From a virus, in the IMG/VR virus record IMGVR_UViG_3300010403_000024, positions 1 to 64,000 of that record: 64,000 nt of DNA, one strand, 5' to 3'. The notes beneath the pieces are model-generated. The model saw only the letters and a program-made list of their open reading frames with translations. It was not told where the DNA came from and made no database searches. A program made the position numbers and the translations under genes. Positions 43,973 through 59,919 of this stretch are shown here, one piece after another. The stretch's first letter is position 1, and each line of letters opens with the position of its first letter.

Positions 43973-43978
43973 GAATTT

Positions 43979-44461
43979 ATGAAGACACTTTTGGGAATCA
44001 TCGGAATCATCTGCGGGTTGCTGCTTGGGGCCTCGCTCTTTGGGGCGGCCCCATTGCAGCGCAATTACTGGACGACCAACGCGGTGCCGGTCGGCGAGCT
44101 GCGGACCAACCCGGCCTCGACGTTGACGGCGGTCTCCTGCTCATTCGACACCAACGGTCCAAGGTACTGGTTCTGGACGAACATGGTGACGAACGTGACG
44201 GTGAACCTGACCAACACCTGGAGCGCGACTCGGACCAACCGGACGCTGGACTTCTTCTTTACCGGCGCGACCAACAACGGACCGAACTACACCGTGACCT
44301 TCCAGACGCTGAACCCCGCCGGGGTCGTTTATCGCTGGGGGATATTTTCTCTCACCAACGGCGCGACCAGTTTCAGCGTGACCAACAATGGAGGGGCTGG
44401 GGCGAGCCTTACGCTTTGGAACACGAATCTGGTTGAGGGGTATTTTTCGCCGACGCACTAA
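43979..44461 (+). CDS. Secreted Thr-Asn-rich protein
   Basis: MKTLLGIIGIICGLLLGASLFGA signal; 11 of 18 Asn preceded by Thr. Confidence 0.8.
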   Translation: MKTLLGIIGIICGLLLGASLFGAAPLQRNYWTTNAVPVGELRTNPASTLTAVSCSFDTNGPRYWFWTNMVTNVTVNLTNTWSATRTNRTLDFFFTGATNNGPNYTVTFQTLNPAGVVYRWGIFSLTNGATSFSVTNNGGAGASLTLWNTNLVEGYFSPTH

Positions 44462-44474
44462 GGATTTTTGAGTT

Positions 44475-45284
44475 TTGAATTTGGATTTGCGATTTTGGAA
44501 AGGAGCGGCTGCTTGCGCAGCCTTTCTGGCTTTTGCCCTGATCGCTAGCGCGGATCGGCGCGGGCAACTTTCGCAGCAACGACCGGCATCGGGTTGGGTG
44601 GACCCGTCGGGATCGAACACGCTCTATGCGTGGTGGGTGTCGAGCGACTTTGCGGTGAACCTGTCGGTCAACAACACCAACCCGTGGATCGACCGGGTGC
44701 AGGGGCGGCTGCTCAGAAATGGTAACAGCACCACCAGCGCAACCAATGCCGCCCTTGGCATTTACACAGCAGACGCCAGTGGTGGCCTTACCAACGCCCC
44801 AACAGCCCAAGGCTCCAATTCAACTTACTGCATTATCTTTCGTCCGTTAAATCTCTCCAGTGGAGACAACACATTCAACACCTGCCTAAGCGGCCCTTAC
44901 TCTTTAGGTGACGGAACACAAGGCAGCACTCCCGGCTCCTTTGCAATCAGAAGATCGACGCGCGTTATTTACTGGGGGACTTTCAACATTAGCGGCCAAG
45001 CCATCTCGTCGCCTTTGGCAAACGACACCACTTACGATTTAATTAGCGTTCAGACCAACAGCACCATGGTAGTTTATACCAATGGCACCCAATCTGCGTC
45101 CATAACAGCGATGCCGCCATTAACGGGTTGGCCCTGGTTTTGGGTGGGACATGATACAGACAGTGCGGCCAACCATTTTGACGGTTATATTAAGGAAGTG
45201 CTGATCTGGAGCAACAGTTTCTCGTCGGTGCAGTTGTCGAATGTTCATTTTTACGCTACCAACCAATACTCCTTTGCTCCCTAA
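44475..45284 (+). CDS. Secreted LamG/concanavalin-A-like lectin with DRRGQL peptide
   Basis: ASA|DRRGQLSQQRP; LYAWW, VYTNG, FDGYIKEVLIW. Confidence 0.8.
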   Translation: MNLDLRFWKGAAACAAFLAFALIASADRRGQLSQQRPASGWVDPSGSNTLYAWWVSSDFAVNLSVNNTNPWIDRVQGRLLRNGNSTTSATNAALGIYTADASGGLTNAPTAQGSNSTYCIIFRPLNLSSGDNTFNTCLSGPYSLGDGTQGSTPGSFAIRRSTRVIYWGTFNISGQAISSPLANDTTYDLISVQTNSTMVVYTNGTQSASITAMPPLTGWPWFWVGHDTDSAANHFDGYIKEVLIWSNSFSSVQLSNVHFYATNQYSFAP

Positions 45285-45359
45285 GCTGGCGCATGTGTCG
45301 GTCGATGCGCTGATCTCCTGCTACTGGTTTTGGCTTTACCTGTGCTTCGTTGCAGTCTC

Positions 45360-45429
45360 GACTTGAGAAATCTTCCGATTCTCAAGTCTCGACTTGACAA
45401 ACTTGCCGAGTTGCGGTGTGCTCCCCGCA
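45360..45429 (+). promoter_or_regulatory. 10-bp hairpin followed by TTGACA promoter with operator-like spacer
   Basis: GACTTGAGAA/TTCTCAAGTC; TTGACA-aacttgccgagttgcgg-tgtgct-7 nt-ATG. Confidence 0.5.
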
Positions 45430-45726
45430 ATGGCTGAACCGCATATCTCAGGTGATCCGAATTTCTCCTCCTGCGCGAACTGCGAAATCCCCGCATGGCA
45501 GTCACACCCTGAAGTCTGCATCGCCGAAGCGCCGCTGGATATTGGCGGGCAGGTGCTGCATTTGATCTTCGACCCGGAGAGCAATGACTGGAACGTCTGG
45601 CTGGACACGGAGGTGATGGCGATGGACGGGCTGGTGATTGGCGGCGGCGCAACGCGGGCCGAGGCGATTGCGGACGCCAAGGCGGTGCTGACCGAGGCGC
45701 TGCGGCGGGTGGAGCATTTGCTATGA
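45430..45726 (+). CDS. Hypothetical protein (HicB-like fold possible)
   Basis: GGGATRAEAIADA. Confidence 0.55.
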   Translation: MAEPHISGDPNFSSCANCEIPAWQSHPEVCIAEAPLDIGGQVLHLIFDPESNDWNVWLDTEVMAMDGLVIGGGATRAEAIADAKAVLTEALRRVEHLL

Positions 45727-46148
45727 GCACGCTAATGGCGATCAGCCTCTGGGAGCCGTGGGCGAGCGCGATGCGCCTGGACTTGAAGCGGAACGAGACG
45801 CGCCACTGGGGGACAGGCTACCATGGCGACCTGGCCATCTGCTCGGCAAAACGCAAGATGGGGGACCTGGAATGGGAGATCGCCCGACGCTGGTTGCCCT
45901 CGGATTTTGTGCCACAATACGGGTTGTGCCTTTGCGTGGTGGAGATTTACGACTGCCAGTACAGCGACGACATGGACCTGGACCAGATCGGCGAACAGGA
46001 ATTGGCTTTGGGCGACTACGGCCCAGGGCGGCGGGTGTGGATGACGCGCCGATGCCGACCGCTGATCCAACCCGCGCCGATCCGCGGCCAGCAAGGGATG
46101 TGGCAACTGGACTTTGCGAACACGGAGGCGATCAATCAAAGATTGTGA
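45723..46148 (+). CDS. ASCH-domain protein
   Basis: AISLWEPWAS...KRNETRHW...GDLAI, P.RGQQGMW. Confidence 0.87.
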   Translation: MSTLMAISLWEPWASAMRLDLKRNETRHWGTGYHGDLAICSAKRKMGDLEWEIARRWLPSDFVPQYGLCLCVVEIYDCQYSDDMDLDQIGEQELALGDYGPGRRVWMTRRCRPLIQPAPIRGQQGMWQLDFANTEAINQRL

Positions 46149-46351
46149 GCGCCTCCGGCCATCGGCATCGCTGCCCGAAGTGCGGGAAGGATCGGGCCTT
46201 CAGCTACCGCTGGGACGCCTACTACTGCGAGAAGTGCAAGGTCTGGCTGGAGGAGAAGTGCGCGGACGCGCTGTGCATCTTCTGCGCGGACCGGCCAGCG
46301 GAGCCGCCCAGGACCGAGCACTGCAACAGCACGCGGAGTAAACTTTCTTGA
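46145..46351 (+). CDS. Cys-rich zinc-binding small protein
   Basis: CPKC...DAYYCEKC..WLEEKC....C.FC..RP. Confidence 0.72.
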   Translation: MSASGHRHRCPKCGKDRAFSYRWDAYYCEKCKVWLEEKCADALCIFCADRPAEPPRTEHCNSTRSKLS

Positions 46352-46388
46352 CCCAATCGGCAGAATGGCGGACAAGGACTAAAAGCAA

Positions 46389-46595
46389 ATGTTTACGCGC
46401 TTTACCCTGGCCGACCTGGCGGCGACGATTGTGCAGCCGGACGACGACCTCTGCACCGCGATCAAGAAGGTGATGCAGGCGCAGCGGCTGTGGTACCAAT
46501 ACCAGCGCTACAAGTTCAACGACGACGGATCGATCTCGGACTCTTTTTGTCAGGAGATAAAAAATTGCTTTGCAACTCTGGAGGCGGGAACCTAA
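46389..46595 (+). CDS. Small virion-type protein, paralog of N-terminus of 47666..49192
   Basis: DLC...Y.FNDDGSISDSFCQEI..C. Confidence 0.65.
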   Translation: MFTRFTLADLAATIVQPDDDLCTAIKKVMQAQRLWYQYQRYKFNDDGSISDSFCQEIKNCFATLEAGT

Positions 46596-46602
46596 CGCAT
46601 TT

Positions 46603-47364
46603 ATGGCAAACAAAACACTAACCCCCGAAGTCGCGGCTGTCCTGAGTCGCGCAACGATCACCGGCAACAAACTCGTCGTGCCGAATAATCCTGACGGCTC
46701 TCGGCTCGACCGCTCCCTCTACCAAAAGGTCAATGATGCGCTTGTGGCCGCTGGTGGAAAATGGAACACCAAAGAGCAAGGTCATATATTCAACAGTGAT
46801 CCGCGCCCAAAACTAGAACTGATGCTGGAAACAGGAGTGGCCGTGGATGAGGCTGGAACCAAGAAAAAGAAACTCCAAGCCTTCTACACCCCAAAGCCGC
46901 TCGCGGATGAACTCGTCCAACTGGCAAACGTCAAAGGCCAATTCGTGCTCGAACCATCGGCAGGACGAGGTGCATTGGTGGAAGCCTGCGCTCGCGCTGG
47001 TGCGCGTGGTGTGGTCTGTGTAGAACTCGACCAGGAATCCGCCGCACAACTCAAAGCGGACGGACTGACAAATGTAACCTGCGCCGATTTCCTGACACTC
47101 AAGCCAAATCGCAAATACAGCCGCATTGTGATGAATCCGCCGTTCACTCGCGGACAAGACATCAAGCATGTGGAACACGCCCTGAAATGGCTCGCGACCG
47201 ACGGTGTTCTTGTGTCAGTGATGCTCGCAGACGGCGACCGTCCAAAACTCAAGGAAGTGCTGAACGGCCACGAATGGAATCTCCGGGATGTGCCAGTCGG
47301 TGCCTTTAAGGAATCCGGCACAAACATCGCAACTGCAATCCTGACCGTGCGAGCGCGTGGATAG
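46603..47364 (+). CDS. DNA N6-adenine methyltransferase
   Basis: FYTP, VLEPSAGRG, IVMNPPF, FKESGT. Confidence 0.9.
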   Translation: MANKTLTPEVAAVLSRATITGNKLVVPNNPDGSRLDRSLYQKVNDALVAAGGKWNTKEQGHIFNSDPRPKLELMLETGVAVDEAGTKKKKLQAFYTPKPLADELVQLANVKGQFVLEPSAGRGALVEACARAGARGVVCVELDQESAAQLKADGLTNVTCADFLTLKPNRKYSRIVMNPPFTRGQDIKHVEHALKWLATDGVLVSVMLADGDRPKLKEVLNGHEWNLRDVPVGAFKESGTNIATAILTVRARG

Positions 47365-47372
47365 GCTAACGT

Positions 47373-47669
47373 ATGAGCAGTCCCGAAACAACCCAACTGC
47401 ACGCGACCGTGCCCTCAGCGACGGGTTCTCCGACGGCTGAAGAACTCGCAGCACTGAAGGCCGAAAATGCGCAACTGAAAGACATCATGCGCAAGTGCAA
47501 CCGGGACGGGCACCGGCTGAAGGATTTCATCATCGCGTGCAATGGGCCGGGCGAGATGATTCGCTTCCAAGAGGCGGCGACCAATAACAAGGGCGTCGAT
47601 ATTTTCTTGAGCTACCTCGACAGCTTGTGGCGCGAACTCGATAAGGCCAAGTCGGAGGCTAACAAATGA
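47373..47669 (+). CDS. Hypothetical protein
   Basis: Coupled to next gene. Confidence 0.55.
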   Translation: MSSPETTQLHATVPSATGSPTAEELAALKAENAQLKDIMRKCNRDGHRLKDFIIACNGPGEMIRFQEAATNNKGVDIFLSYLDSLWRELDKAKSEANK

Positions 47670-49192
47670 GCTCACCTGTTACACCATCGCAACTGCTCGC
47701 TACTGTCGCGTCGGGCACAGGGGACGTATGCCAAAGGTTCGCGGCGCTGCTGAAGTTCGGGCAGCTCGCGCATGATGAATTTGCCTACGAGCGCAATGAG
47801 CAGGGGGACATCACGCCAGAATTTTGCAGCGACATTTTGGCGTGTGCCGGCATCTCCGGTGTCACGCCCCCGGGCGGCGGCACGGGCGGCACATTAGCGG
47901 CCCCGGTGATCTCGGCCTCGGACGGCACCTTTGGCGACCGGGTGCGGATCACCTGGAATGCGGTGAGCGGCGCGACTCAGTATTTTGTCTATCGGGCGAC
48001 GGCCGACAACCCGGCGCTGGCGACGCAGATCGCGACCAGCGTCTCGATGCAGTATGACGACACGACCGGGACGATTGACACCACCTACTACTACTGGGTG
48101 AAGGCATCCAACGGCACCACGACCTCGGCGCTGTCCAACTCTGACCCAGGCTATTACTCGACGCCACTGGGTGCCGTGAGCGACCTGGAATGCAGCCGCG
48201 GGGCGGCCACGACGCTGAACCCGCAACGGGTGATCTACATGCAATGGACGGAAGTGCCGACCGCGACGGTGTATGACATCTATCGGCATACGGCGGACGA
48301 TTTCCCGAACGCGACCAAGATCAAGGACGGGTTGGCCCCAGGCGACAACACCAGCTACAGCGGGGCGAGCCCGAACGGGTTGACCGACAACGTGACCGAC
48401 CTGACCTACTACGACACGCCGCCCGACCCGTTCCTCGAGTACTTTTACTGGGTGATTGGGCGCAAGCTGAATCCGAACGCAGCCGGGTTGGTCAGCAACA
48501 CGGGCTCCGGCTGGGCGGTGGGCTTCGGCGAGGGCAACACGCCGGATGCGGCGGTCCACATCACGGACGTGGCGGAGCATACGGTGCCGGCGTCGATGAC
48601 GCGCGCCTGGATCTACATGATCGGCGGAGCAGCGGGCGGGGCCGGGGCGGGCGTGAACTTTGGCGGGGGCGGCAGCGGGGCCGGGGCGGTGCTGTGGGGC
48701 GAACTGGCGGTGGCGGCTGGCGGCAAGTTCCAGTTTGTGGCGACTGGCTCGGCGGAGAGTACGGCGGCGGCGGAGACCGATGGGGCCGATGGGCGCCTTT
48801 GGGAATTGAAATACAAACCACCGGCGGGCAGCTACGCGACGGTGATGACATCCTCGGCGGCGACCGGCGGCAACTACAACGCCGCTGGCGGCGGCACGGG
48901 CGGGACTGGGGCGGTGGCGACCAACGACGGCGTGATCAGCAACGGGGCCGAGCACGACGGCAACGACGGGTTGCCGGGTCAGGGGGCCAAGGGCGGGCGC
49001 AGCGGGAAGATCTGGGGGTATGTCAGGACACCGGCGGCGCATTCGTTGCCGGGCTTTCCATTGCCTGGCTTCAGCGGCGACGGCAACGGCGCGGGCGGGA
49101 GCGTGGCGGTCGGCAACCCGTCATTTTTGGCCTACGCGACGGGCGGCAAGGGGCAGACGGCGCAGGCGAGTATTTCGTTTTCCATCGCCTGA
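47666..49192 (+). CDS. Tail fibre/spike with fibronectin-III repeats and glycine-rich domain
   Basis: ASDGTF.DRVRITW..VSGAT.Y.VYR, YYYWVKA; GGAAGGAG..GGGSGAG; no signal peptide. Confidence 0.8.
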   Translation: MSSPVTPSQLLATVASGTGDVCQRFAALLKFGQLAHDEFAYERNEQGDITPEFCSDILACAGISGVTPPGGGTGGTLAAPVISASDGTFGDRVRITWNAVSGATQYFVYRATADNPALATQIATSVSMQYDDTTGTIDTTYYYWVKASNGTTTSALSNSDPGYYSTPLGAVSDLECSRGAATTLNPQRVIYMQWTEVPTATVYDIYRHTADDFPNATKIKDGLAPGDNTSYSGASPNGLTDNVTDLTYYDTPPDPFLEYFYWVIGRKLNPNAAGLVSNTGSGWAVGFGEGNTPDAAVHITDVAEHTVPASMTRAWIYMIGGAAGGAGAGVNFGGGGSGAGAVLWGELAVAAGGKFQFVATGSAESTAAAETDGADGRLWELKYKPPAGSYATVMTSSAATGGNYNAAGGGTGGTGAVATNDGVISNGAEHDGNDGLPGQGAKGGRSGKIWGYVRTPAAHSLPGFPLPGFSGDGNGAGGSVAVGNPSFLAYATGGKGQTAQASISFSIA

Positions 49193-49225
49193 TTTTTTAC
49201 AGAAGGCAACGAAGGTAACAAAGAA

Positions 49226-50143
49226 ATGCAGACTATAGTTATTTATCACCGAAGCGACTTCGACGGCATCTTTTGCAGGGAGGTCGCCCGCAAGTTTCTA
49301 CCGCAGGCTGAATTGATCGGATGGGAGTACGGCGACCCGGTGCCGTCGGTGCCGGAGGAAGCGCAACTCTACATCCTCGATCTGAGCGTGGAGGGCCTGA
49401 TGCAGCACCCGAACCTGATCTGGATCGACCATCACAAGAGCGCCATCGACAAGTACCCATCGACGATCAAGGGCTACCGGATCGATGGCGTGGCGGCCTG
49501 CCGGCTGGCCTGGCAATGGTTCGCGAAGAAGAAAAACGCTTATCCCTGGACAGCTATAATTGACTGGCCAGAGAAGCAGCATTTTGTCCGCAGGGAAGTT
49601 GAGGAACCAATAGCCGTGCGCCTCGCCGGTGAGTACGACATCTGGGACAGGAGAAATCCCGACGCTGAACTGTTTCAGCACGGACTGCGTAGCCAGGATC
49701 TTGAACCGCTCTGGGAAATTCTTTTGTCTGGCCCATTCTCGGAGGACGCAGACGGCAAAGTTGGGTTGGACGAAATCACGGTCGATGCGCTGCTCGAAGC
49801 TGGACGCGCGCTCCAATACGCCAAGACCAAGGAGAACGAATCGATCATCAAGGCCCAGAGTTTCCGCATGCAATGGGAGGGGTTGCGCTTCCTCTGCTGC
49901 AACCATGCGCGCTTCAACTCATTTTTGTTTACGGCGGGACTGACACCCGACGACGACGCCTGCCTGGGCTTCTGCTGGGATGGCCGAAAATGGAAAGTCT
50001 CGCTCTACCACGCGACGGGCAAGGAGCACATTGATCTATCAGTGATCGCGGTCAAGCATGGGGGTGGAGGCCACCGCGGCGCTTGCGGGTTCGCCTGCGA
50101 TACGCTGCCCTTCCCATTGAAGACTCCATCCGACCCCGCTTGA
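49226..50143 (+). CDS. DHH/DHHA1 phosphoesterase
   Basis: YHRSDFDG, ILD, WIDHH, GGGGHRGACG. Confidence 0.9.
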   Translation: MQTIVIYHRSDFDGIFCREVARKFLPQAELIGWEYGDPVPSVPEEAQLYILDLSVEGLMQHPNLIWIDHHKSAIDKYPSTIKGYRIDGVAACRLAWQWFAKKKNAYPWTAIIDWPEKQHFVRREVEEPIAVRLAGEYDIWDRRNPDAELFQHGLRSQDLEPLWEILLSGPFSEDADGKVGLDEITVDALLEAGRALQYAKTKENESIIKAQSFRMQWEGLRFLCCNHARFNSFLFTAGLTPDDDACLGFCWDGRKWKVSLYHATGKEHIDLSVIAVKHGGGGHRGACGFACDTLPFPLKTPSDPA

Positions 50144-50149
50144 GGTAGT

Positions 50150-50608
50150 GTGATCGAAATCAAAAAATCTGAAACCGCCGATACCCGGACCTGTGACTTC
50201 GCCAACACGTCCAAGGAAACATTGCTGGCATCCAGCCGGCAGCATATCGGCGACGTGGTGAAGGCCCTCGCTTTCTTCTCTGCCAAGATCACGGAGGCCG
50301 CGGGCGAACATGACTATGACAAGCTGACCGCCATCGACTGGTTTCATTCGGACTTCGTGACTGGATTCAAAAAGACTGGATGGTGGGATAATCATCGGAA
50401 GATCCACCGGCACCACCTCGACAAGGCCGATGGGGTGCCGGATAACGTGAACCTGCTCGATGTTATCGAACACATCGCCGATTGCGTGATGGCCGGAATG
50501 GCGCGGAGCGGGAACGTCTATGAATTGAAGCTGTCGGATGAACTACTCCAACGCGCCTTTCGGAACACAGCCGAACTGCTCAAGGCGCAGGTAAGGGTGC
50601 AGGAATGA
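50150..50608 (+). CDS. HD-domain protein (DUF5662-like)
   Basis: H...HDYDK...HRHH...EHIAD. Confidence 0.72.
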   Translation: MIEIKKSETADTRTCDFANTSKETLLASSRQHIGDVVKALAFFSAKITEAAGEHDYDKLTAIDWFHSDFVTGFKKTGWWDNHRKIHRHHLDKADGVPDNVNLLDVIEHIADCVMAGMARSGNVYELKLSDELLQRAFRNTAELLKAQVRVQE

Positions 50609-50823
50609 CCACCAGCGCCACCCAAAAGCCGGCGCCGCACCCGTTCTACGGCGATGCCTACGAGCGGGGCAAAGATCCCTGGCACAAGGAGGCGTTCCCG
50701 GATGGGTTCAAGGACGCCGCGCCCAATCAGGGTGATCGGCGCGAGGGCTGGTTTCTACTCGACGGCTTCGGAAACGCCATCGGCTTCGTGCCCGATGGGA
50801 CGGAACTGCCAACCCCAACCTGA
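50605..50823 (+). CDS. Hypothetical protein
   Basis: Coupled small ORF. Confidence 0.55.
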   Translation: MTTSATQKPAPHPFYGDAYERGKDPWHKEAFPDGFKDAAPNQGDRREGWFLLDGFGNAIGFVPDGTELPTPT

Positions 50824-50824
50824 G

Positions 50825-51106
50825 ATGATTTTGGAAGCGACCACGAAGAATATTGAGTGGCTGGTTGAACGCCTCTACGAAGTCAGGCGCTACATGCAGG
50901 CTGAAGGCATTGAGAATCCAACCTTTGTGCTGCTCACGAAAGGCGAGGAGGACCGGCACAGGATTGAACGGATCTTTTTTTTGTATTTCCAATCCCGCTA
51001 TGGAATCCCATCCTTTGAGTGCATTCAAGTGGCTGAAACCAGCCGGTCGCACAGCCGGTACGAACTGCCAAACATAGGCGCGTCGATCATCTTAATGGAC
51101 ATCTGA
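50825..51106 (+). CDS. Hypothetical protein
   Basis: ATG 50825. Confidence 0.55.
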   Translation: MILEATTKNIEWLVERLYEVRRYMQAEGIENPTFVLLTKGEEDRHRIERIFFLYFQSRYGIPSFECIQVAETSRSHSRYELPNIGASIILMDI

Positions 51107-51109
51107 ATC

Positions 51110-51628
51110 ATGAGAAGACACTGGTCTTATCTGCAATATGTCCTTCGGCACAAATGGTTTGTATTCCTCGCCGGCCTTAAAACTGGCGCGCCACTGTGGC
51201 GGTTGATCATCCACGACTGGAGTAAGTTCCTGCCCTGCGAATGGGGGCCATACGTGCGGAGCTTCTATAACCGGGATGGCAGCAAGCGCGATTGGAAGAC
51301 GCGCGACCCTTGGGACAAGGTGGAGTTTGACTGGGCGTGGAACCACCACCAGAAATCGAACGATCACCATTGGCAGTACTGGTTACTGACCAACGACTCG
51401 GACGATCCAAAGCACCGCCCACTGATGATGCCGGAGGAATGCGTGCGCGAGATGGTGGCCGACTGGATGGGGGCGGGGCGGGCCATTACCGGCAAGTGGG
51501 ATGCGCTCAACTGGTACGGACAGAATCAAGGGAAGATACTGCTGCATGAACTGACGCGCAGCCAAGTGCGCGAGATCCTCGAACGCGCCATGGAGAAAAT
51601 GGTTCTCGACAAGCGGGGCAAAAACTAA
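51110..51628 (+). CDS. HD-domain protein (DUF5662 family)
   Basis: RHKWFV, HDWSK, HHQKSNDHHWQYW, EMVADW.GA. Confidence 0.82.
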   Translation: MRRHWSYLQYVLRHKWFVFLAGLKTGAPLWRLIIHDWSKFLPCEWGPYVRSFYNRDGSKRDWKTRDPWDKVEFDWAWNHHQKSNDHHWQYWLLTNDSDDPKHRPLMMPEECVREMVADWMGAGRAITGKWDALNWYGQNQGKILLHELTRSQVREILERAMEKMVLDKRGKN

Positions 51629-53694
51629 TGGCCGCGCGAGTCCCATACAAGCCGATCACCATCCGCCCGATCGATGGCTTGCTCGATACTCGTCTGACCC
51701 CGGACGAGATCCCGATTGGCGGGTACCGCTACGTCGAAAGCTGGGAATGCCTGGCACGGGGCAAGCTCTGCCGGATGAGCGGCTGGCGGCGATTGCTGGA
51801 CGAGGAGTTCAATAACAACGCGGATCTGCACGATCAGTTGCTGACGATCACCGAGCGGGAAGTGCGGCAGCCGATCATCTTTCTCTTTACGCATCCGATG
51901 CCGCTGGGGACGAACAAGTTTTATGCCGCGAGCGCCAATGTGCTGTATGCCCTCAACAACGGGACGGGCAACTGGAAAGTGATCGGCGACGAGTTCAGTC
52001 CCGCCCAGAGCGCCTCCTGCCCAGAGGTGAGATGGAGCGCGGCGGGCTTTGGCGACGTGGTGGTATTCAGCAACGGGATCGACCCGGTAGTTTATCAGGT
52101 GGTCGATCAGCCGGCGCTGGGCGACACCGACCAGAGCGTGCAGACGATCAGCGACCTGGAACTGTTGAACATCACGCGGGTCGGGTTTGTAAAGCAGTTC
52201 GCCGGCCTCACCATTTACTTCAACGTCGTGCAGGATGCGGTGCGGCACAGTTACCGGGCCATCTGGAGCGATTATCAAAATCCGCTGAGCGTGAAGCCCA
52301 AAGCCAGCGCCAGTGTCGCGGGCTACAAGGACCTGGACTTTGGCGAAGTGATATTGGCGGCGGAAGAACTGGGCAACTCGCTGGTCGTCTATACCAACAA
52401 AGCGATCTGGCAGGCGGATCTGGGGGGCGACGCCGGGTTGATCTGGAGCAAGCGCTATTCACCCAAGGATGTCGGCGACCGCTGCTTGGTCTATCCGCGC
52501 ACATTGGTCTCGACCGGATCGGAGCATTACTTCTTTGCCCGCGACGGCATTTACCTCTTCTCGCAGTATGTGGCCAAGCCGCAGCGCATCGAGTGGATTC
52601 ACAACGCGAGCGCCATTGTCTTCGAGGACCTGGACAGCAGCCGGTGCGTGGTGCATCACGGGGCCCATGAGGTGGACAAGAAACAAATCTGGTGGAGCTG
52701 GGCCAAGACGGGCGAGGCGTGTCCGACCCAGAGCTTTGTGATCAACACCGAGTATTCCTTTGCCTCGCTGGTGCCGAAAGGGTTTAGCGCCTTCGGGTTG
52801 TTTGGATTTATCCGGCAAAGGATTCTGCGCGATTTCTTGATCGAGAAGTGCATCTGCGACGCCGCCGGGTTGGAGGAGAACGGGCTGGGCTTCGTGCATG
52901 AAGGCGGCTTCTGCGCGGCCCCCGCCGACTGCACCGGCTGCGACGCGGACACTGAGAGCGACTGCGAGGCCCCGACCTCGATCTACACCAACGAGACGGT
53001 GGACCTCGACGGTGTGGAGGTCGAGGACCTGAACTTTGGTGGCGGCAACACCCCGGATGCACAGTCGCTCTGCACGGCGTTGGCGGGGTTGACCGTGCAG
53101 GACCTCTGCCAGGTGGAAGCGGTCGCGGCCGAGTGCAAGGACGCGGATTTGTTTATCGGGGCCAGCACCGAAGATTTTTGTTTGAAGGAGATGGACAGCG
53201 AGGTGCGCTACCGGGAACGGTGCAGCGACATGGCGGGCTGCGGGACCTACATCAAGGACGGGTATCTGAGCATCCTGCGGAGCGGTCCGCTCGACTTGGG
53301 CTTGCCGGAGCAGGAGAAGCGCATCAGCCGCTTCGGGGTGGAGATACATCCGGAGGAGCAGAGCGTGCCCAGCCAACTGGAACTGAAGGTGGGAAGCGCG
53401 GTGCAGGCGATTGACCCGAACAAGTTCGACGAGAACGGGCGCTGCGTGATCATGTACCGGGAGGAAGTGCCGCGCAGCCTGGAATGTTTATCAACCAAGA
53501 CGGCGGTCGAGCACGCCGAGGCTGGGACGCGCCCGGACGAGGACGTGGCCTGGACGCTGGATATGATCGGGCGCTATTTCTATTTTGAACTGACGGTCAG
53601 CAACCCGAACGTGAGTCCACCGAATACGGGCGGGGCGGTCTGTTTGTCGCGGATCAGTTTCCGGGCCGGGGCGGCGGCGATGCTGAAGATGTAG
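51628..53694 (+). CDS. Tail stabilisation / nozzle protein (P22 gp10-like), Cys-rich
   Basis: GLLD..LTP N-terminus, beta-propeller-like VVFSNG.D, IWSD, VYTNKAIW, DGIY. Confidence 0.72.
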   Translation: MAARVPYKPITIRPIDGLLDTRLTPDEIPIGGYRYVESWECLARGKLCRMSGWRRLLDEEFNNNADLHDQLLTITEREVRQPIIFLFTHPMPLGTNKFYAASANVLYALNNGTGNWKVIGDEFSPAQSASCPEVRWSAAGFGDVVVFSNGIDPVVYQVVDQPALGDTDQSVQTISDLELLNITRVGFVKQFAGLTIYFNVVQDAVRHSYRAIWSDYQNPLSVKPKASASVAGYKDLDFGEVILAAEELGNSLVVYTNKAIWQADLGGDAGLIWSKRYSPKDVGDRCLVYPRTLVSTGSEHYFFARDGIYLFSQYVAKPQRIEWIHNASAIVFEDLDSSRCVVHHGAHEVDKKQIWWSWAKTGEACPTQSFVINTEYSFASLVPKGFSAFGLFGFIRQRILRDFLIEKCICDAAGLEENGLGFVHEGGFCAAPADCTGCDADTESDCEAPTSIYTNETVDLDGVEVEDLNFGGGNTPDAQSLCTALAGLTVQDLCQVEAVAAECKDADLFIGASTEDFCLKEMDSEVRYRERCSDMAGCGTYIKDGYLSILRSGPLDLGLPEQEKRISRFGVEIHPEEQSVPSQLELKVGSAVQAIDPNKFDENGRCVIMYREEVPRSLECLSTKTAVEHAEAGTRPDEDVAWTLDMIGRYFYFELTVSNPNVSPPNTGGAVCLSRISFRAGAAAMLKM

Positions 53695-53708
53695 ATTTCG
53701 TTTGCGAT

Positions 53709-53724
53709 TCGGCAGAGTTGCGGA
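53709..53724 (+). promoter_or_regulatory. Operator-like motif TCGGCAGAGTTGCGGA
   Basis: Matches motif at 23504; 12 nt before ATG 53737. Confidence 0.55.
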
Positions 53725-53736
53725 CATTGTGCCTTT

Positions 53737-54009
53737 ATGAATGCAAAGAGCACACCCCAAATTGTAAGACGAGTCGGACATTTCAGACCGCCGATCCCGC
53801 AACCGATACCTGAGTTAAGGCCAAGCCCGCCCAGCCTGGTGCCGCAGAACATGGCCCAAACCATCCTGGTGCTGGAGAAGACGATCTACGAGGCCAAGCG
53901 CAAGTACGTGACCGGATCAGGCGACCCGCTGGTGGATCTTGCCAAGCTGATCGAGACGGCGACCGCAGAATGCAACCGCTGTCCGGCAGCTAGCCAGGCA
54001 GTTAAATGA
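53737..54009 (+). CDS. Hypothetical protein
   Basis: Follows motif; coupled to next gene. Confidence 0.55.
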   Translation: MNAKSTPQIVRRVGHFRPPIPQPIPELRPSPPSLVPQNMAQTILVLEKTIYEAKRKYVTGSGDPLVDLAKLIETATAECNRCPAASQAVK

Positions 54010-55154
54010 GCGAGCACTACGAAGAGCGGCATCGGCAGGAGCAACAAGAGCAGCAGGAGCAGGAAATGCAGGTGCGGCCCATCCCGCCGCACCATCACAA
54101 GCCGCATCCACAGCACCAGCAACATCTGCGGCGCCCGCTGGAGATCGACAAGCACCAGTCGCCCCACACGCTTTACCGGAGGTTCGCGCGGCCAGATTGC
54201 CTCAAGGACCCGCTCTACGTGGTTACCAGCGTGTTTAACCCGATCCGTTACCGCTCGCGCTGGAAGCTCTACGAAGATTTCTGCAAGATGTGCGCGGAGA
54301 CCGGCGCCATCCTCTACACAGTGGAAGTCGCTTTCGGGGACCGGGCCTTTTGCTGCACGGACGAGAACAATCCGTTCCACCTGCAACTGCGCACCTGGCA
54401 CGAGATCTGGTTCAAGGAAGCGGCGCTGAACCTGGCGGTGCAATGTTTGCCACACGATTGGAAATACGTAGCCTGGGTCGATGCCGACACACACTTCGCG
54501 CGCTACGACTGGGCGGACGAAACCCGGCATCTGTTGCAACACTACCCGATCATCCAGATGTGGAGCCAGATGCACGACCTGGACTCGAACTTCCAACTGG
54601 TGGGGAGCACGCGCAGCTTTGGCGATGTTTGGATGTCGGGCGAGAAACCGCCGCCGGGTTGGAACCGCGAGGACTGCAAGTATTACTATCCGCACCGCGG
54701 CTACCCTGGGGCCCCGGGCCTGGCCTGGGCGATGCGGCGCGAGGCATGGGAGCAACTGGGCGGCTTGATCGACTACTGCATTCTGGGCGCGGGCGACTGG
54801 TACATGGCCCACGCCTTGACCGGCCAGATCGAACGCGTGCTGGCGCCGGGGCAGCATCCGCGATTGAAAGAGAAGTTGCGGCAATACCAGCACCACGCGG
54901 AGCGCAGCCTGTGGCAGGAGCGCCCGATCTGCGGCAACCTTGGCGTGATGAAAGGGTTAGCGCTGCATTACTGGCACGGGCCGAAGCTGAACCGGCGCTA
55001 CCGATCGCGGGAGCAGATTCTGTACGGGAACAACTACAACCCCGACATCGACCTGAAGCGCGACTGGCAGGGGCTGCTCCAACTGACCTCGCGGTCGGCG
55101 GAGTTGCGCCGGCAGGTGCAGCGATACTTTGCGGAGCGATTGGAGGATGCCTGA
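54006..55154 (+). CDS. GT-A glycosyltransferase-like protein with His/Gln-rich N-tail
   Basis: FNP.RY.SR, WFKE..LN, YVAWVDAD (DxD), PGLAWA, LGAGD, HYWHG. Confidence 0.75.
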   Translation: MSEHYEERHRQEQQEQQEQEMQVRPIPPHHHKPHPQHQQHLRRPLEIDKHQSPHTLYRRFARPDCLKDPLYVVTSVFNPIRYRSRWKLYEDFCKMCAETGAILYTVEVAFGDRAFCCTDENNPFHLQLRTWHEIWFKEAALNLAVQCLPHDWKYVAWVDADTHFARYDWADETRHLLQHYPIIQMWSQMHDLDSNFQLVGSTRSFGDVWMSGEKPPPGWNREDCKYYYPHRGYPGAPGLAWAMRREAWEQLGGLIDYCILGAGDWYMAHALTGQIERVLAPGQHPRLKEKLRQYQHHAERSLWQERPICGNLGVMKGLALHYWHGPKLNRRYRSREQILYGNNYNPDIDLKRDWQGLLQLTSRSAELRRQVQRYFAERLEDA

Positions 55155-55396
55155 TGCAGCCGTTCCAACAGCGGGTGATCGAGGAGAAGAAAGAACTGGA
55201 TCAAAAGATTGATCGGCTGGTGGCGTTCACGAAGGGACTGACCGCGCAATCGGATCGGGTGGATGGAGTGAGCGTGTGCTCGATCTTCCATCGGCTGCCC
55301 CCGGATGAACAACTGAGGCTGGCGCGGCAGTTGGATGCGATGCAGAATTACTCCGGCATACTGGCCGAGCGCATCGCGCATTTTTGTGTAATATGA
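55154..55396 (+). CDS. crAss001_48-like protein, second copy
   Basis: MQPFQQRVIEEKKELDQKIDRL..F...QLDAMQNYSGILAERI. Confidence 0.8.
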   Translation: MQPFQQRVIEEKKELDQKIDRLVAFTKGLTAQSDRVDGVSVCSIFHRLPPDEQLRLARQLDAMQNYSGILAERIAHFCVI

Positions 55397-55581
55397 AAAA
55401 AGGAACAAAAGTAAGCTGGCTGGCCGCAGGCGCTACGGTGCGCGGCCACGGAGTAACCATCTCGGACGAAGAGAACGGCCATGTGATGGTCGCGGTTGAT
55501 AGCGGGGTGTTTGAATACATCCCATTGGCCTACCATGTGGTGATCCACTGCACCGTCACCTGGCTAACCGTCGAAGCATGA
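55393..55581 (+). CDS. Small SH3-like hypothetical protein
   Basis: MKKGTKVSW; coupled. Confidence 0.55.
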   Translation: MKKGTKVSWLAAGATVRGHGVTISDEENGHVMVAVDSGVFEYIPLAYHVVIHCTVTWLTVEA

Positions 55582-55775
55582 CCGCCGCACAGTTAGCAGA
55601 CTTCAGGCGCCGCACCGGCGGCAGCATCGCGCCCGCGGTGCCGGTCAAGGAACTGCCCAAGTTTGCCGAGATGCTGGAAGTGTTCGCCACCAGCGACGAG
55701 CGCAAGTCGGCGTTAAAGAAGCTGGACGGGAAGAGCGAGGAGTGGCGCAAGGCGCTGGGCTTCAGCATTACGTGA
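55578..55775 (+). CDS. Hypothetical protein
   Basis: Coupled. Confidence 0.55.
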   Translation: MTAAQLADFRRRTGGSIAPAVPVKELPKFAEMLEVFATSDERKSALKKLDGKSEEWRKALGFSIT

Positions 55776-56191
55776 GGCGAGCGAGGCGAGTGAAGCGAGC
55801 GAAGCGCAAAGCCAAGCCCATTGTGGATCGGCACTTGGGGGTGTTCCTAATGGGCCACCTCAACGTCGATCTCTACGCCAACACCCAGATGCAGGGAGGC
55901 GAGTTTTATTTCTGGCCCGACGAGAAGTCGCTGCCGTGCATCCGGGTCGGATTGGATGGAAGCTGGCCAGACACCATAAGCTGGCTGCTGCATGAGGCGC
56001 TGGAGTTTGCCCTGTGCCACCGGCAACTGCGCTTTGCGCGCACCGCAAAGCTCAATGGTGATCACGCGGATTTCCTGTTTGTGTTCGACCACTGCGAATA
56101 TGGAAACGTGTGTTCGATGGTGGGAAGATTTCTCGTCGATGCGCTGCCTGCGTGGACCAAGGCGTACCGGGAGTGGAAACGAAAGGGCTAG
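55772..56191 (+). CDS. Hypothetical protein with LLHEALE (zincin-like) motif
   Basis: GTG 55772; HExxE. Confidence 0.55.
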   Translation: MRRARRVKRAKRKAKPIVDRHLGVFLMGHLNVDLYANTQMQGGEFYFWPDEKSLPCIRVGLDGSWPDTISWLLHEALEFALCHRQLRFARTAKLNGDHADFLFVFDHCEYGNVCSMVGRFLVDALPAWTKAYREWKRKG

Positions 56192-56319
56192 AGTTTAATC
56201 ACCCACGTTCGCTTGCACTTGTGGCACTCCCACACCGTCCCGGACATCACGACACCATGGAATTTTCCGTGCCTGCGCTTGCACCAGTTTGCCTTGAAGT
56301 TGTATAGCCACTTTTTCAT
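56188..56319 (-). CDS. Small zinc-finger peptide (43 aa)
   Basis: MKKWLYNFKANWCKRRHGKFH...WECHKCKRTW. Confidence 0.55.
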   Translation of the reverse strand: MKKWLYNFKANWCKRRHGKFHGVVMSGTVWECHKCKRTWVIKL

Positions 56320-56346
56320 GCGGCAAGCTTCTCAAGTTTTGAAGCA

Positions 56347-56365
56347 GTAGGCAAAACTTGCCTAG
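56347..56365. promoter_or_regulatory. Palindrome GTAGGCAAAACTTGCCTAG before internal virion genes
   Basis: Identical 19-mer at 59873-59891; partial at 11279-11294. Confidence 0.7.
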
Positions 56366-56396
56366 TCCGGGGGAATAGCGTAATAGACGCCTTGAG

Positions 56397-58043
56397 ATGG
56401 CAACGTACGCATCAGCCTTGTCGCCCCGTTACTACGGCGGGCAGCAGGTGAACCCGATGGGCTACGGCTCGAACATCGCCGACAATCAACTGATCGACTG
56501 GCAGCAGCAGCTCCAGAAATTCCCAAGAATCTACGGCACGGGTTGGGGCTATGGACCAGCGCCGGTGCCGACCGGAACGGCCAAGAGCGTGATGGCGGGC
56601 GCCTCGCCCTGGGGCGGATTTAACTTCGGAGCGGTCGCACCCTCGACGGCAACGGGCTCGACGAGTGGCCTGCCGCTGCTCACGACCTCGAAGTCTCCGG
56701 CGGGCAATGCGGCGCTGGAAGCGACGCTCGCGCGGGTGAGCAGCCTGTCGAACGACCCGAACCAGCCAGTGTTCACCACCATCAAGGACCCGGCGCAGGC
56801 GGCGCGGATCGCTGCCACCGGCGGACAGTTCGACACCGCGACCGGCCAGGGGCGCGAACGGCTGGCGGATTTCACGGCCAACTTTTTCAACGCCGCGCCG
56901 GAGGCCAAGCGTTACACCGATCAGGAGACGGGCGCGATCGGCGAATACTACGGTCCAGCCAGCGACCCCAACTCGGTCACGGCGTCATTGAACCGATTGC
57001 TCAACCAGCGCCGGCAAGCGGTGGCGGGCAGCCTGCAGCGGGCGCTGAACCAATCGGTGCGGCGCGGCAACATCAATCGATTGGGATTGGGCGGCGACTC
57101 GTCTTACAACAACCAGCAGTTTATGGACACGGCCGCCGGCATCATGTCGGGCGAGGCCGCGACCGAGGCGGAGTTGAACCGCAACAATTACCTGGCGGTG
57201 AAGGACGCGCAGGCGCGATTGGCCGGCCAGCGGAGCGGGCTGTTGCAGAATTATCTGACGCGGGATCTGATCCCGATAGAGGCTAACCAGCGCTTCCTGA
57301 GCAGCACGGTAGGGAACCTCGGTGCGCTCGGCAACGTGACGAACGCCAACAACCTTTACCAGACGCCCGAACAGTTGCAGAGCGCGAGGCTGGGGCTGCT
57401 CGGCCAGTACGGGGCGGACCTGAATGCGCTCAACATCTTCGGCGTAGGCGGGAATTTCCCAAGCCCGGCAGCGAACTGGGGGAATCCGAATCGGGGCTTG
57501 GGACCAATCGACTACAGCGGCTTCGGCGGCGGCCTGACGCTTGATGCGAGGACCGGCCAGGTGGTGGGTGGCGGCGGAGGAGGCACAAGCCAGACCCGCG
57601 GGATGTTGCCCGCCCAGTACGCCAATGCCGACCCGGTGACGCGGGCGGCGGCCATGCAGTATTATCAAGCGAGCGGGGTGTGGCCAAACCAGGACGTGAA
57701 CTACTCGCCCGAATTGTGGAACTGGGCGCGAGGACAAGTCGCGGGCATGCCGAGGCCGAACACCGGCACGACCGGCAACGTGGGATTGTACGGGTTGGAT
57801 TACGCCAGCCAAGTGGTGAACGGCGGAGGTGGAGGAAACCTGCCCGGCAATTACGGCCTGTACGGCACCGACTACGGGCCGCCGATGGTGAATGGCGCGC
57901 CGCTTGGCTACGGGCTTTACGGCACTGATTACGGCCCGAATGTGTGGCCAACAGCGGGCGGCGCACGCGGGGCGATGATTGACGCGCGACGCGCCGGGGG
58001 GCTGAGCGATGCGGATCTGGCCTACTTGTTCGGGGGTGGCTAA
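56397..58043 (+). CDS. Internal virion / DNA ejection protein (putative)
   Basis: Gly/Asn/Gln/Ala-rich, no Cys, after tail genes; GLYGxDY x3. Confidence 0.65.
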   Translation: MATYASALSPRYYGGQQVNPMGYGSNIADNQLIDWQQQLQKFPRIYGTGWGYGPAPVPTGTAKSVMAGASPWGGFNFGAVAPSTATGSTSGLPLLTTSKSPAGNAALEATLARVSSLSNDPNQPVFTTIKDPAQAARIAATGGQFDTATGQGRERLADFTANFFNAAPEAKRYTDQETGAIGEYYGPASDPNSVTASLNRLLNQRRQAVAGSLQRALNQSVRRGNINRLGLGGDSSYNNQQFMDTAAGIMSGEAATEAELNRNNYLAVKDAQARLAGQRSGLLQNYLTRDLIPIEANQRFLSSTVGNLGALGNVTNANNLYQTPEQLQSARLGLLGQYGADLNALNIFGVGGNFPSPAANWGNPNRGLGPIDYSGFGGGLTLDARTGQVVGGGGGGTSQTRGMLPAQYANADPVTRAAAMQYYQASGVWPNQDVNYSPELWNWARGQVAGMPRPNTGTTGNVGLYGLDYASQVVNGGGGGNLPGNYGLYGTDYGPPMVNGAPLGYGLYGTDYGPNVWPTAGGARGAMIDARRAGGLSDADLAYLFGGG

Positions 58044-58051
58044 CACTCTTT

Positions 58052-58867
58052 ATGAAAAACTGGATTGCCAAAGCCACGCGCAACAAGGGCGGCTTGCACC
58101 GCTTTTTGATCGCAGCGCTCGCGCTCGCGCTCTGCCTGCCGGTCTTGGCGGATCGGCGCGGTCAACTGATGCAGCAGCGGCCAGGGAGTGCGGCGGCAAC
58201 CGCCATTCACTACTGGAAATTCGACGAGTCAGCCAGTCCATGGGCAGATTCGGTCGCGGCCACGGCCATGACTTCGGGCGACGCCGTGCTCTCAGCGACC
58301 GGGATACTCAATCTTGGAGTACGCTTCGCGAGTGTCGGAGCGACCCCAATCACGATCAATTCGGACAATGCCGCAAACATCGTGATCGGCGGAGCCGGAC
58401 TCACCTTCACCGCTTGGGTAAAGTTTGCCAGTTTTGGCACCAGCGCTGGGGCGCAAATCTTTTCCTTCACCGGCTCCTCACCGCTGAAACGATTCAGGGT
58501 GGTGGTCGATGACACTGGCACGCCAAATTTCTACATCGGGTTATCATTGCAATACACACCGACCGCGACATTTGCTCTCAACCAGTGGACGCTGGTGCGC
58601 ATCCAGTACGACAACTCGACCAAGAAATTCGGCTTTCAAAGGTCGGATGCCATGAACGGGATCGGCTCGCTGGAGGAGAGCGCGGTAGTCTCAGACTTGG
58701 CAGGGAGCACCAGCGGCTTCATCCAGTTGAGCAGTGACGGGGGGCCGGCGGCCTCAAATGATTATATTGAGGACGAGTGCGGGTTATGGAACCGGCTCTT
58801 GAGTTCGGGCGAGCACAGCACGCTCTATGGCGGCGGCTCGCCGCCATCGTACCCCAACGTGCCTTAA
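58052..58867 (+). CDS. Secreted LamG/concanavalin-A-like lectin with DRRGQL peptide
   Basis: VLA|DRRGQLMQQRP; IHYWKFDE, TFTAWVK, DECGLWNR.LS..E...LY. Confidence 0.82.
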   Translation: MKNWIAKATRNKGGLHRFLIAALALALCLPVLADRRGQLMQQRPGSAAATAIHYWKFDESASPWADSVAATAMTSGDAVLSATGILNLGVRFASVGATPITINSDNAANIVIGGAGLTFTAWVKFASFGTSAGAQIFSFTGSSPLKRFRVVVDDTGTPNFYIGLSLQYTPTATFALNQWTLVRIQYDNSTKKFGFQRSDAMNGIGSLEESAVVSDLAGSTSGFIQLSSDGGPAASNDYIEDECGLWNRLLSSGEHSTLYGGGSPPSYPNVP

Positions 58868-58870
58868 CCT

Positions 58871-59767: not shown

Positions 59768-59872
59768 GGCGAGCGCGGCAGAGGATTGCACTCTGCATGA
59801 TGGTTGCTCTTTTCACCTGGAGGGTGGATGTCCATTTTTGCCGCCTCAAATGAGGAAGCAAAAATGGACAAG

Positions 59873-59891
59873 GTAGGCAAAACTTGCCTAG
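59873..59891. promoter_or_regulatory. Palindrome GTAGGCAAAACTTGCCTAG before giant ORF
   Basis: Identical to 56347-56365. Confidence 0.7.
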
Positions 59892-59919
59892 CAGGCGGGC
59901 GTGGCGTACAAGGCCAGCA

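What the first reader, a model, noticed from the sequence alone, without database searches (positions are those of the whole stretch)
44475..58867. Shared DRRGQLxQQRP peptide exposed by signal cleavage on two divergent lectins
Seen: 44475 reads ASA|DRRGQLSQQRP and 58052 reads VLA|DRRGQLMQQRP. The DNA also matches (gcggatcggcgcgg.caact near 44550 and 58148), yet the genes lie 13.5 kb apart and their signal peptides and LamG domains show no obvious identity. Inference: this is a docking tag made free by signal peptidase, letting interchangeable receptor-binding heads plug into one virion site. It may also act as a recombination anchor for swapping cassettes.
Basis: partly seen in the sequence, partly recalled or inferred. 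Interest (0 to 1): 0.85.

Follow-up and report, generated by a model that had tools for sequence, protein, structure and literature searches.

The report
Shared post-signal tag on phage lectins
Two otherwise dissimilar small lectin-like proteins of an uncultivated soil phage carry the same 11-residue peptide directly behind their export signals; it looks like a portable address tag, rare and undescribed, but what it binds is unknown.

Summary
Genes 44475-45284 and 58052-58867 each encode a Sec-type signal peptide, then A|DRRGQL-x-QQRP, a ~10-residue linker and one LamG (Laminin_G_3) domain. The motif occurs only twice in the 77.4-kb virus contig.

It is selected as a peptide. Five of the ten shared codons differ synonymously. 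In three orthologues of the first gene (52-63% identical) the signal peptides are unalignable but the motif is invariant.

I found it, or a weaker DRR..L...R form, on four LamG lineages (six proteins among billions searched). It always follows a -3/-1 (A/V-x-A) cleavage site. It was absent from IMG/VR and from 400 Verrucomicrobiota genomes.

The closest relatives of the second LamG (35-39% identity) have no signal peptide and no motif. They carry a different conserved 13-residue N-terminus, so the N-terminal module is exchangeable. AlphaFold2 places the tag on a low-confidence arm outside the fold.

Best reading (0.45): an address or tether peptide exposed by signal peptidase on exported lectins, binding one shared partner in the cell envelope.

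It conflicts with export and no adapter was found (0.2).

The same genome was noted by other first readers. The motif was not found on other DNA in this scan.

The parts
44475..45284 (+). Gene for the 269-aa exported LamG protein (P0001/P0004)
   Evidence: ORF and translation. Pfam Laminin_G_3 E 2.3e-7, 31.5 bits against cutoff 27.6. Orthologues P0005 and P0006 at 63% and 52% identity.
44475..44552 (+). Signal peptide of P0001
   Evidence: Basic n-region (R6, K9), a 17-residue uncharged run, A-x-A at -3/-1. Start may be the TTG at 44475, 44481 or 44487. Cleavage is inferred, not shown.
44553..44585 (+). Tag DRRGQLSQQRP (residues 27-37)
   Evidence: Invariant in three orthologues whose signal peptides are unalignable.
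44616..45281 (+). LamG / concanavalin A-like domain of P0001 (about residues 48-269)
   Evidence: Pfam match to residues 112-251. The conserved first-strand block DPSxSNTLYAWW starts at residue 43.
58052..58867 (+). Gene for the 271-aa exported LamG protein (P0002)
   Evidence: ORF and translation. Pfam Laminin_G_3 28.1 bits against cutoff 27.6. 910 LamG relatives in the exhaustive HMMER search.
58052..58150 (+). Signal peptide of P0002
   Evidence: n-region net charge +5, a 16-residue uncharged run, V-x-A at -3/-1.
58151..58183 (+). Tag DRRGQLMQQRP (residues 34-44)
   Evidence: pLDDT 53-68, and under 50 for residues 40-45, in the AlphaFold2 model built with an alignment.
58199..58864 (+). LamG domain of P0002 (about residues 50-271)
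   Evidence: pLDDT 86-97 in the AlphaFold2 model. Foldseek matches only generic ConA-like jelly rolls. Aligns end to end with the signal-less relatives P0007-P0012.
43979..44461 (+). Upstream 160-aa signal-peptide protein, co-conserved with the first LamG gene
   Evidence: 50% identical homologue directly upstream of the LamG orthologue in metagenome contig L099. Binding to the LamG protein is not shown.

Best explanation
The two genes encode small single-domain LamG (concanavalin A-like, lectin-type) proteins of an uncultivated tailed phage from soil. Each is made with a classical Sec-type signal peptide.

Cleavage by signal peptidase I after the conserved Ala would leave DRRGQL-x-QQRP as the new N-terminus. 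It would sit on a flexible arm of about 20 residues in front of the LamG body. This basic, Gln-rich undecapeptide is a portable address tag: it is kept unchanged while signal peptides and LamG bodies diverge, and LamG bodies of the same clade exist with other N-terminal modules.

Most likely the tag tethers the exported lectin heads to one common partner in the cell envelope (periplasm, peptidoglycan or outer membrane, or another exported phage protein). The phage can then place two different glycan-binding heads at the same site, for example to mask or hold receptor glycans, as exported Llp- or Cor-type phage proteins do.

Shown: the motif, its selection at the peptide level, its position at a predicted cleavage site, its presence on several LamG lineages, the exchange of the N-terminal module, and its position outside the predicted fold.

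Inferred: export, cleavage, the tethering role and the compartment. The partner is unknown.
For: - Motif present twice and only twice in the contig, far above chance.
- Peptide-level selection: 5 of 10 shared codons differ synonymously between the two window genes. Codon identity at identical residues between P0001 and its orthologue in L099 is only 34%, so synonymous sites are saturated.
- In the orthologue alignment A1 the run A-DRRGQLSQQR is invariant while the signal peptides do not align.
- Six proteins on four LamG lineages carry the tag or a DRR..L...R variant: P0004/P0005/P0006, P0002, P0018, P0156.
- All six have a basic n-region or start, a 15-17-residue uncharged run (too short for a stable membrane anchor) and A/V-x-A before the Asp.
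- The closest relatives of the P0002 LamG (P0007-P0012, 35-39% identity, same C-terminal GGxPPSYPNIP) lack both signal peptide and tag. They share another N-terminal peptide, MxxxCEK[DE]F.....
- On a tree of the LamG domain alone, P0002 is sister to that clade (SH-aLRT 92) and P0018 and P0156 lie elsewhere.
- AlphaFold2 with 66 sequences: LamG core pLDDT 86-97, residues 1-49 at 53-68.
- Eight other signal-peptide-bearing LamG relatives start the domain 3-25 residues after the cleavage site, without any such basic peptide.
- The phage has at least five further proteins with clear Sec signals. The 43979 + LamG pair sits at the 3' end of a structural operon, where exported accessory genes of known phages often lie (established knowledge: T5 llp, T1/phi80 cor, lambda lom).
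Against: - No signal-peptide predictor and no experiment: export and cleavage are inferred from rules.
- Two Arg at +2/+3 of the mature protein (net +1 to +3 over 11 residues) are unusual for Sec substrates in E. coli, where basic residues early in the mature part slow export (established knowledge).
- No partner was identified.
- P0002 lies tightly packed between large structural-looking genes: 9-nt and 3-nt intergenic gaps (between the stop at 58043 and the start at 58052, and between the stop at 58867 and the start at 58871), next to a 2564-aa ORF. Signal-less relatives of its LamG lie in phage structural modules next to an Ig-domain protein. This fits a virion role at least as well.
- Single origin of the tag-bearing LamGs is not formally rejected (AU p 0.064).
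Confidence: 0.45

Rival explanations
1. Virion docking peptide. The undecapeptide plugs interchangeable LamG heads into one adapter site on the tail, as the 7- and 11-residue N-terminal peptides of K1E/K1-5/SP6 tailspikes do. Either the heads are picked up from the periplasm at lysis, or the hydrophobic leader is removed by something other than signal peptidase.
For: - Precedent for docking peptides of exactly this length, shared by two receptor-binding proteins of one phage (PMC6872550).
- Both genes lie in or at the end of structural operons.
- Signal-less relatives of the P0002 LamG carry a different conserved 13-residue N-terminus and sit in structural modules of other phages, beside a He_PIG/PKD Ig-domain protein.
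- The tag is a flexible arm outside the fold.
Against: - The leaders have every feature of Sec signal peptides, so the mature proteins should be periplasmic while tailed virions assemble in the cytoplasm.
- No T4gp10-like adapter or other docking protein was detected by Pfam or PHROGs in the 39-64 kb region.
- The proteins are ~25-kDa single domains, not trimeric spikes.
- I know of no documented case of post-lysis decoration through a cleaved signal peptide.
Confidence: 0.2
2. Uncleaved signal-anchor. The hydrophobic segment stays in the inner membrane and DRRGQL-x-QQRP is a juxtamembrane motif that fixes orientation or contacts lipid head groups or a membrane partner.
For: Basic residues directly behind a hydrophobic segment are typical of membrane-flanking regions. 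In P0005 the n-region carries only one basic residue against a net +2 behind the segment, so its topology is ambiguous.
Against: The uncharged runs are only 15-17 residues including the c-region, with A/V-x-A at -3/-1 in all six proteins. P0002 has a +5 n-region, which fixes the N-terminus in the cytoplasm. A Pro sits at -4 in P0002.
Confidence: 0.1
3. Processing or export-control element. The motif is read by the export or maturation machinery: it tunes Sec or signal-peptidase kinetics, or is a dibasic propeptide cleavage or modification site. It is not a binding tag.
For: It always abuts the cleavage site. It contains RR and Gln pairs that could be protease or transglutaminase-type targets (inference only).
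Against: Ten invariant residues are far more than cleavage-site context needs. Other signal-bearing LamG relatives do without it. No protease or modifying enzyme is linked to it.
Confidence: 0.1
4. DNA-level feature or recent gene-conversion patch with no function for the peptide.
For: The first 14 bases, GCGGATCGGCGCGG (with a GATC), are identical in all three available DNAs. Under the phage's codon usage this has probability about 4e-4 to 8e-4.
Against: The remaining codons of the motif differ synonymously in all three DNAs. The motif is kept in proteins from five separate contigs. No RNA structure: z-scores 0.71, 0.77 and -0.24.
Confidence: 0.03

Closest known systems
N-terminal conserved docking peptides of dual receptor-binding proteins in K1E/K1-5/SP6-type and KP32/KP34-type podoviruses (Leiman 2007 as cited in Latka 2019, PMC6872550)
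   Same: A very short (7-11 residue) conserved N-terminal peptide is shared by two otherwise different host-binding proteins of one phage. It differs between phage groups and allows heads to be exchanged.
   Different: There the peptide is the true N-terminus of a cytoplasmic, trimeric tailspike and docks on a T4gp10-like adapter. Here it follows a Sec-type signal peptide, the heads are ~25-kDa single LamG domains, and no adapter was found.
Exported phage accessory proteins encoded beside tail or receptor-binding genes (T5 Llp, T1/phi80 Cor, lambda Lom/Bor)
   Same: Signal-peptide-bearing small proteins encoded in or next to tail modules, acting in the host envelope.
   Different: No sequence or fold relation. 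Those are lipoproteins or beta-barrels, not lectin-fold proteins. None is known to carry a shared post-signal tag.
Small single-domain Laminin_G_3 proteins of tailed phages
   Same: Same fold and size. The nearest ESM Atlas clusters are 208-231-aa Uroviricota proteins. P0007-P0012 are 35-39% identical to P0002.
   Different: Those seen here (P0007-P0012) lack the signal peptide and the tag. They carry another N-terminal peptide or none.
Post-signal sorting motifs of bacteria (for example the lipoprotein export signal of Bacteroidota, or N-terminal Ala-Asp peptidoglycan-linked outer-membrane proteins of Alphaproteobacteria). Recalled from memory, not tested.
   Same: A short motif at the mature N-terminus decides where an exported protein ends up.
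   Different: Different sequence. No lipobox in 5 of 6 proteins. Cleavage before the Ala is unlikely (Leu at -1 in P0002). The motif was not found in 400 Verrucomicrobiota genomes or in the truncated genome-collection scan.

Membership tests
Pfam PF13385 Laminin_G_3 (ConA-like lectin/glucanase superfamily) | Score at or above the gathering cutoff (27.6 bits) | tested here: met
   P0001 31.5 bits, P0002 28.1 bits.
Pfam PF13385 Laminin_G_3 (ConA-like lectin/glucanase superfamily) | Beta-sandwich jelly-roll fold | tested here: met
   AlphaFold2 model of P0002, pLDDT 86-97 over residues 50-271. Foldseek probability 1.0 to ConA-like lectin subdomains at 10-16% identity. This is a generic fold match only and says nothing about the function of the matched proteins.
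Sec-type (signal peptidase I) signal peptide | Basic n-region, hydrophobic h-region of about 10-16 residues, small or neutral residues at -3 and -1, no Pro at +1 | tested here: met
   All six tag-bearing proteins: A or V at -3, A at -1, D at +1, uncharged run of 15-17 residues. Rule-based only; no SignalP-type tool was available.
Sec-type (signal peptidase I) signal peptide | Actual export and cleavage | not testable with these tools
   Needs N-terminal sequencing or reporter fusions.
Twin-arginine (Tat) signal peptide | S/T-R-R-x-F-L-K motif in the n-region, before the hydrophobic core | tested here: not met
   The RR lies after the hydrophobic core, and no hydrophobic stretch follows it.
Bacterial lipoprotein (signal peptidase II) | Lipobox [LVI][ASTVI][GAS]C at the cleavage site | tested here: not met
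   Only P0005 has L-A-A-C just before the tag. P0001, P0002, P0006, P0018 and P0156 have no lipobox at that place.
K1-5/SP6/KP32-type N-terminal docking peptide system | Short conserved peptide shared by two or more host-binding proteins of one phage | tested here: met
   10 of 11 residues identical in P0001 and P0002.
K1-5/SP6/KP32-type N-terminal docking peptide system | Peptide is the N-terminus of the primary, cytoplasmic translation product | tested here: not met
   It is preceded by an 18-33-residue signal-like leader in all six proteins.
K1-5/SP6/KP32-type N-terminal docking peptide system | Adapter or first receptor-binding protein with a T4gp10-like docking domain | tested here: inconclusive
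   None named by Pfam or PHROGs among 20 ORFs of 39-64 kb. Most of these ORFs have no family at all. No profile-profile search was done.
Receptor-masking or superinfection-exclusion proteins (Llp/Cor type) | Sequence or fold relation, or a demonstrated exclusion phenotype | not tested
   No homology is expected. The analogy rests on gene position and export only.

The most novel reading that the evidence does not exclude
The phage exports its lectin heads, and perhaps other fibre-like parts, through Sec. Signal peptidase creates a free undecapeptide N-terminus, and this peptide then docks the heads onto finished virions (at or after lysis) or onto a dedicated envelope scaffold. That would be a two-compartment assembly route for host-binding parts of a tailed phage, with the tag as a universal plug for swapping heads.
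Probability: 0.12. Interest if true: 0.85.

Novelty: new variant of a known kind. Interest (0 to 1): 0.5.

Why it matters
Short N-terminal peptides that let phages exchange host-binding heads are known only for cytoplasmic tailspikes. A conserved tag that becomes an N-terminus only after signal-peptide cleavage would extend that principle to exported phage proteins. It would point either to an unknown envelope target shared by several phage lectins or to assembly steps outside the cytoplasm. Practically, an 11-residue tag with its partner could serve as a targeting handle. The family is tiny (six proteins found) and known only from soil and rhizosphere metagenomes, so the general impact is uncertain.

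Tried and rejected
- Complex prediction of mature 43979 (residues 23-160) with mature P0001 (residues 27-269): score 0.00, no verdict. This counts neither for nor against binding.
- Single-sequence AlphaFold2 of P0002 failed (pLDDT 36). It was repeated with an alignment.
A gene co-occurrence table could not be made.
- The genome search could not reach the rest of contig JADMIO011288096.1.
- Motif DNA scans:
  - Metagenome and genome collections gave ~236 matches. All but L099 were chance hits in other frames.
  - IMG/VR gave 0, and 9 chance hits with a looser tag-plus-YW..DE pattern.
  - 400 Verrucomicrobiota genomes gave only the known chance hit.
- The search for related loci with P0001 and P0002 in IMG/VR found no relatives.
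- GenBank phages: no match for the region or for the window 26854-28734 ORF, the putative capsid gene.
- Word-based protein searches: P0002 and the P0018 tag region found only themselves.
- RNA structure around the motif: none.
- Tat signal, lipoprotein and donor-strand readings were rejected on sequence grounds.
- An internal start (the ESM Atlas holds P0001 from residue 42) was rejected because Val42 is not conserved in the orthologues.
- NCBIfam: nothing for the window proteins. P0156 weakly matches the LamG part of haloarchaeal TafC, far below cutoff.
- No RNA holder was listed among sequencing runs. Laid contigs were identical to the window over the tag, so they gave no polymorphism data.
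- AU test of a single clade of tag-bearers: p 0.064, not decisive.


Full report
**What is there**

The window is the first 64 kb of a single 77,439-bp virus record. It has the hallmarks of a tailed phage:
- a large terminase at 17534-19120 on the minus strand;
- a PHROG 'virion structural protein' at 51628-53694 and a weak tail-fibre match at 47666-49192;
- a 2564-aa ORF starting at 59884.

It has no relatives among GenBank phages. Identical fragments occur in soil and rhizosphere metagenome runs from several studies.

The two genes of the finding are 44475-45284 (P0001, 269 aa) and 58052-58867 (P0002, 271 aa). Each encodes a hydrophobic leader, the peptide DRRGQL[S/M]QQRP, a short linker, and one Laminin_G_3 domain that passes the Pfam cutoff.

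Yes.
- The 20-base DNA pattern occurs twice, against none in 100 shuffles.
- DRRGQL occurs only at these two places in all six frames of the contig.
- BLASTP aligns only this region between the two proteins.

The conservation acts on the peptide. Between the two window genes, five of the ten shared residues use different codons: Gly, Leu, Gln, Arg, Pro. Between P0001 and its orthologue in contig L099, only 34% of identical residues use the same codon, so synonymous sites are saturated.

One oddity remains. The first 14 bases (GCG GAT CGG CGC GG) are identical in all three DNAs I could read, with probability about 4e-4 to 8e-4 under the phage's codon usage. There is no RNA structure there. I leave this unexplained.

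**How far does the motif reach?**

A degenerate DNA scan of the metagenome and genome collections gave about 236 matches. After translation only one was real: L099, part of a 75.7-kb contig.

A word search restricted to residues 21-62 of P0001 found two orthologues, P0005 (the L099 gene) and P0006. In their alignment the signal peptides cannot be aligned, yet A-DRRGQLSQQR is an invariant run.

The exhaustive HMMER search with P0002 gave 910 LamG relatives. Among the 150 listed representatives:
- P0018 carries VGA|DRRGQLMEQRPP;
- the P0129/P0156 cluster carries ALA|DRRALLLSKR, a weaker form sharing DRR..L...R.

That makes six proteins on four LamG lineages. In every case the motif starts right after an Ala, with A or V at -3, behind an uncharged run of 15-17 residues and a basic n-region.

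The motif was not found in IMG/VR or in 400 Verrucomicrobiota genomes. It is therefore not a general host sorting signal, at least in that phylum.

**The N-terminal module is exchangeable**

The closest relatives of the P0002 LamG (P0007-P0012, 35-39% identity, same C-terminal GGxPPSYPNIP) have no signal peptide and no tag. They begin with another conserved 13-residue peptide, MxxxCEK[DE]F[AQ][LI][HS]V, directly before the first LamG strand.

They sit in IMG/VR phage contigs that share no other gene with this phage. In L241 the gene follows a divergently oriented terminase gene, a 608-aa ORF and a He_PIG/PKD Ig-domain protein.

A tree of the LamG domain alone puts P0002 next to this signal-less clade (SH-aLRT 92), with P0018 and P0156 elsewhere. 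An AU test does not quite reject a single clade of tag-bearers (p 0.064), so polyphyly is suggested but not proven.

Eight other signal-bearing LamG relatives start the domain a few residues after the cleavage site, with no basic peptide. The AlphaFold2 model built on 66 sequences gives a confident jelly roll for residues 50-271 and low confidence for residues 1-49. The tag is therefore an arm outside the fold. Foldseek finds only generic ConA-like lectin domains at 10-16% identity.

**Context**

Between this phage and the L099 phage the matched core proteins are 23-26% identical: the large terminase, and the ORFs I take from position to be portal and capsid. By contrast the LamG is 61% identical, the upstream signal-peptide protein (43979) is 50%, and a 149-aa protein (55742) is 60%. 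These three look like a more constrained or more recently exchanged set.

The 43979 homologue in L099 carries an extra ~50-residue module behind its signal peptide. That module is 53% identical to the N-terminus of the window's 559-aa signal-bearing protein at 11915. This is a second case of a shuffled post-signal module.

The phage has at least five further proteins with clear Sec signals. This agrees with notes other first readers made on this genome.

**Mechanism**

The leaders meet all rule-based criteria of Sec signal peptides and are too short for stable anchors. I therefore take export and cleavage as the most likely fate (about 0.7).

Given that, the simplest role for an invariant, flexible, basic N-terminal peptide carried by different lectin bodies is a tether or address for one shared partner in the envelope (confidence 0.45).

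The signal-less relatives with their own N-terminal peptide fit it. It needs either post-lysis pick-up or a non-Sec fate of the leader, and no adapter was detected (confidence 0.2).

An uncleaved anchor, a processing element and a DNA-level feature are lesser rivals.

**Limits**
- No signal-peptide predictor and no experiment were available.
- Only three DNA sequences of the tag could be read.
- The one complex prediction gave no verdict.

**Verdict**

This is a new variant of the known principle of short N-terminal address peptides on exchangeable phage binding heads, unusual in being placed behind a signal peptide. Interest is moderate (0.5).

Noticed in passing
window 44550-44563, 58148-58161; L099 about 14096-14109: The 14 bases GCGGATCGGCGCGG (codons for A-D-R-R plus GG, containing a GATC) are identical in all three DNAs. 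The rest of the motif varies synonymously. Probability is about 4e-4 to 8e-4 under the phage's codon usage. No RNA structure there.
   Followed up: partly
L099 13432-14043 and window 11915-12150: The 43979 homologue of the related phage has an extra ~50-residue module behind its signal peptide (HPTTNYIL...AVYRL). It is 53% identical to the N-terminus of the window's 559-aa signal-bearing protein: a second shuffled post-signal module.
   Followed up: partly
window 55742-56191; L099 130-552: A 149-aa basic protein with a conserved WLLHE..E....CHRQLRF block is 60% identical between two phages whose matched core proteins (terminase, putative portal and capsid) are only 23-26% identical. In L099 it lies directly upstream of the large terminase. 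No family found in Pfam or NCBIfam.
   Followed up: partly
window 11915-13594, 13585-14055, 14052-14717, 16226-16873, 43979-44461: Five further ORFs begin with textbook Sec signal peptides. This is unusually many for a tailed phage, and several lie in or beside structural or lysis modules.
   Followed up: no
L240 10001-10750, L241 5264-6010, L242 2638-3381: Signal-less LamG relatives in unrelated IMG/VR phages share a conserved N-terminal peptide MxxxCEK[DE]F.... In L241 the gene follows a protein with He_PIG/PKD Ig domains. This may be another docking peptide.
   Followed up: partly
window 41475-43655: A 726-aa protein with a VWA domain and an intact DxSxS MIDAS motif (DNSKS), without a signal peptide, lies two genes upstream of the first LamG gene.
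   Followed up: no
window 59884 to contig 67578 (L239 885-8579): A single 2564-aa ORF with no family match follows the second LamG gene and a 298-aa ORF. It may be an internal virion or ejection protein.
   Followed up: no
window 43900-59900: Fragments identical to the window occur in contigs of soil and rhizosphere metagenome runs from at least three further studies, so the phage is recurrent in that habitat.
   Followed up: partly
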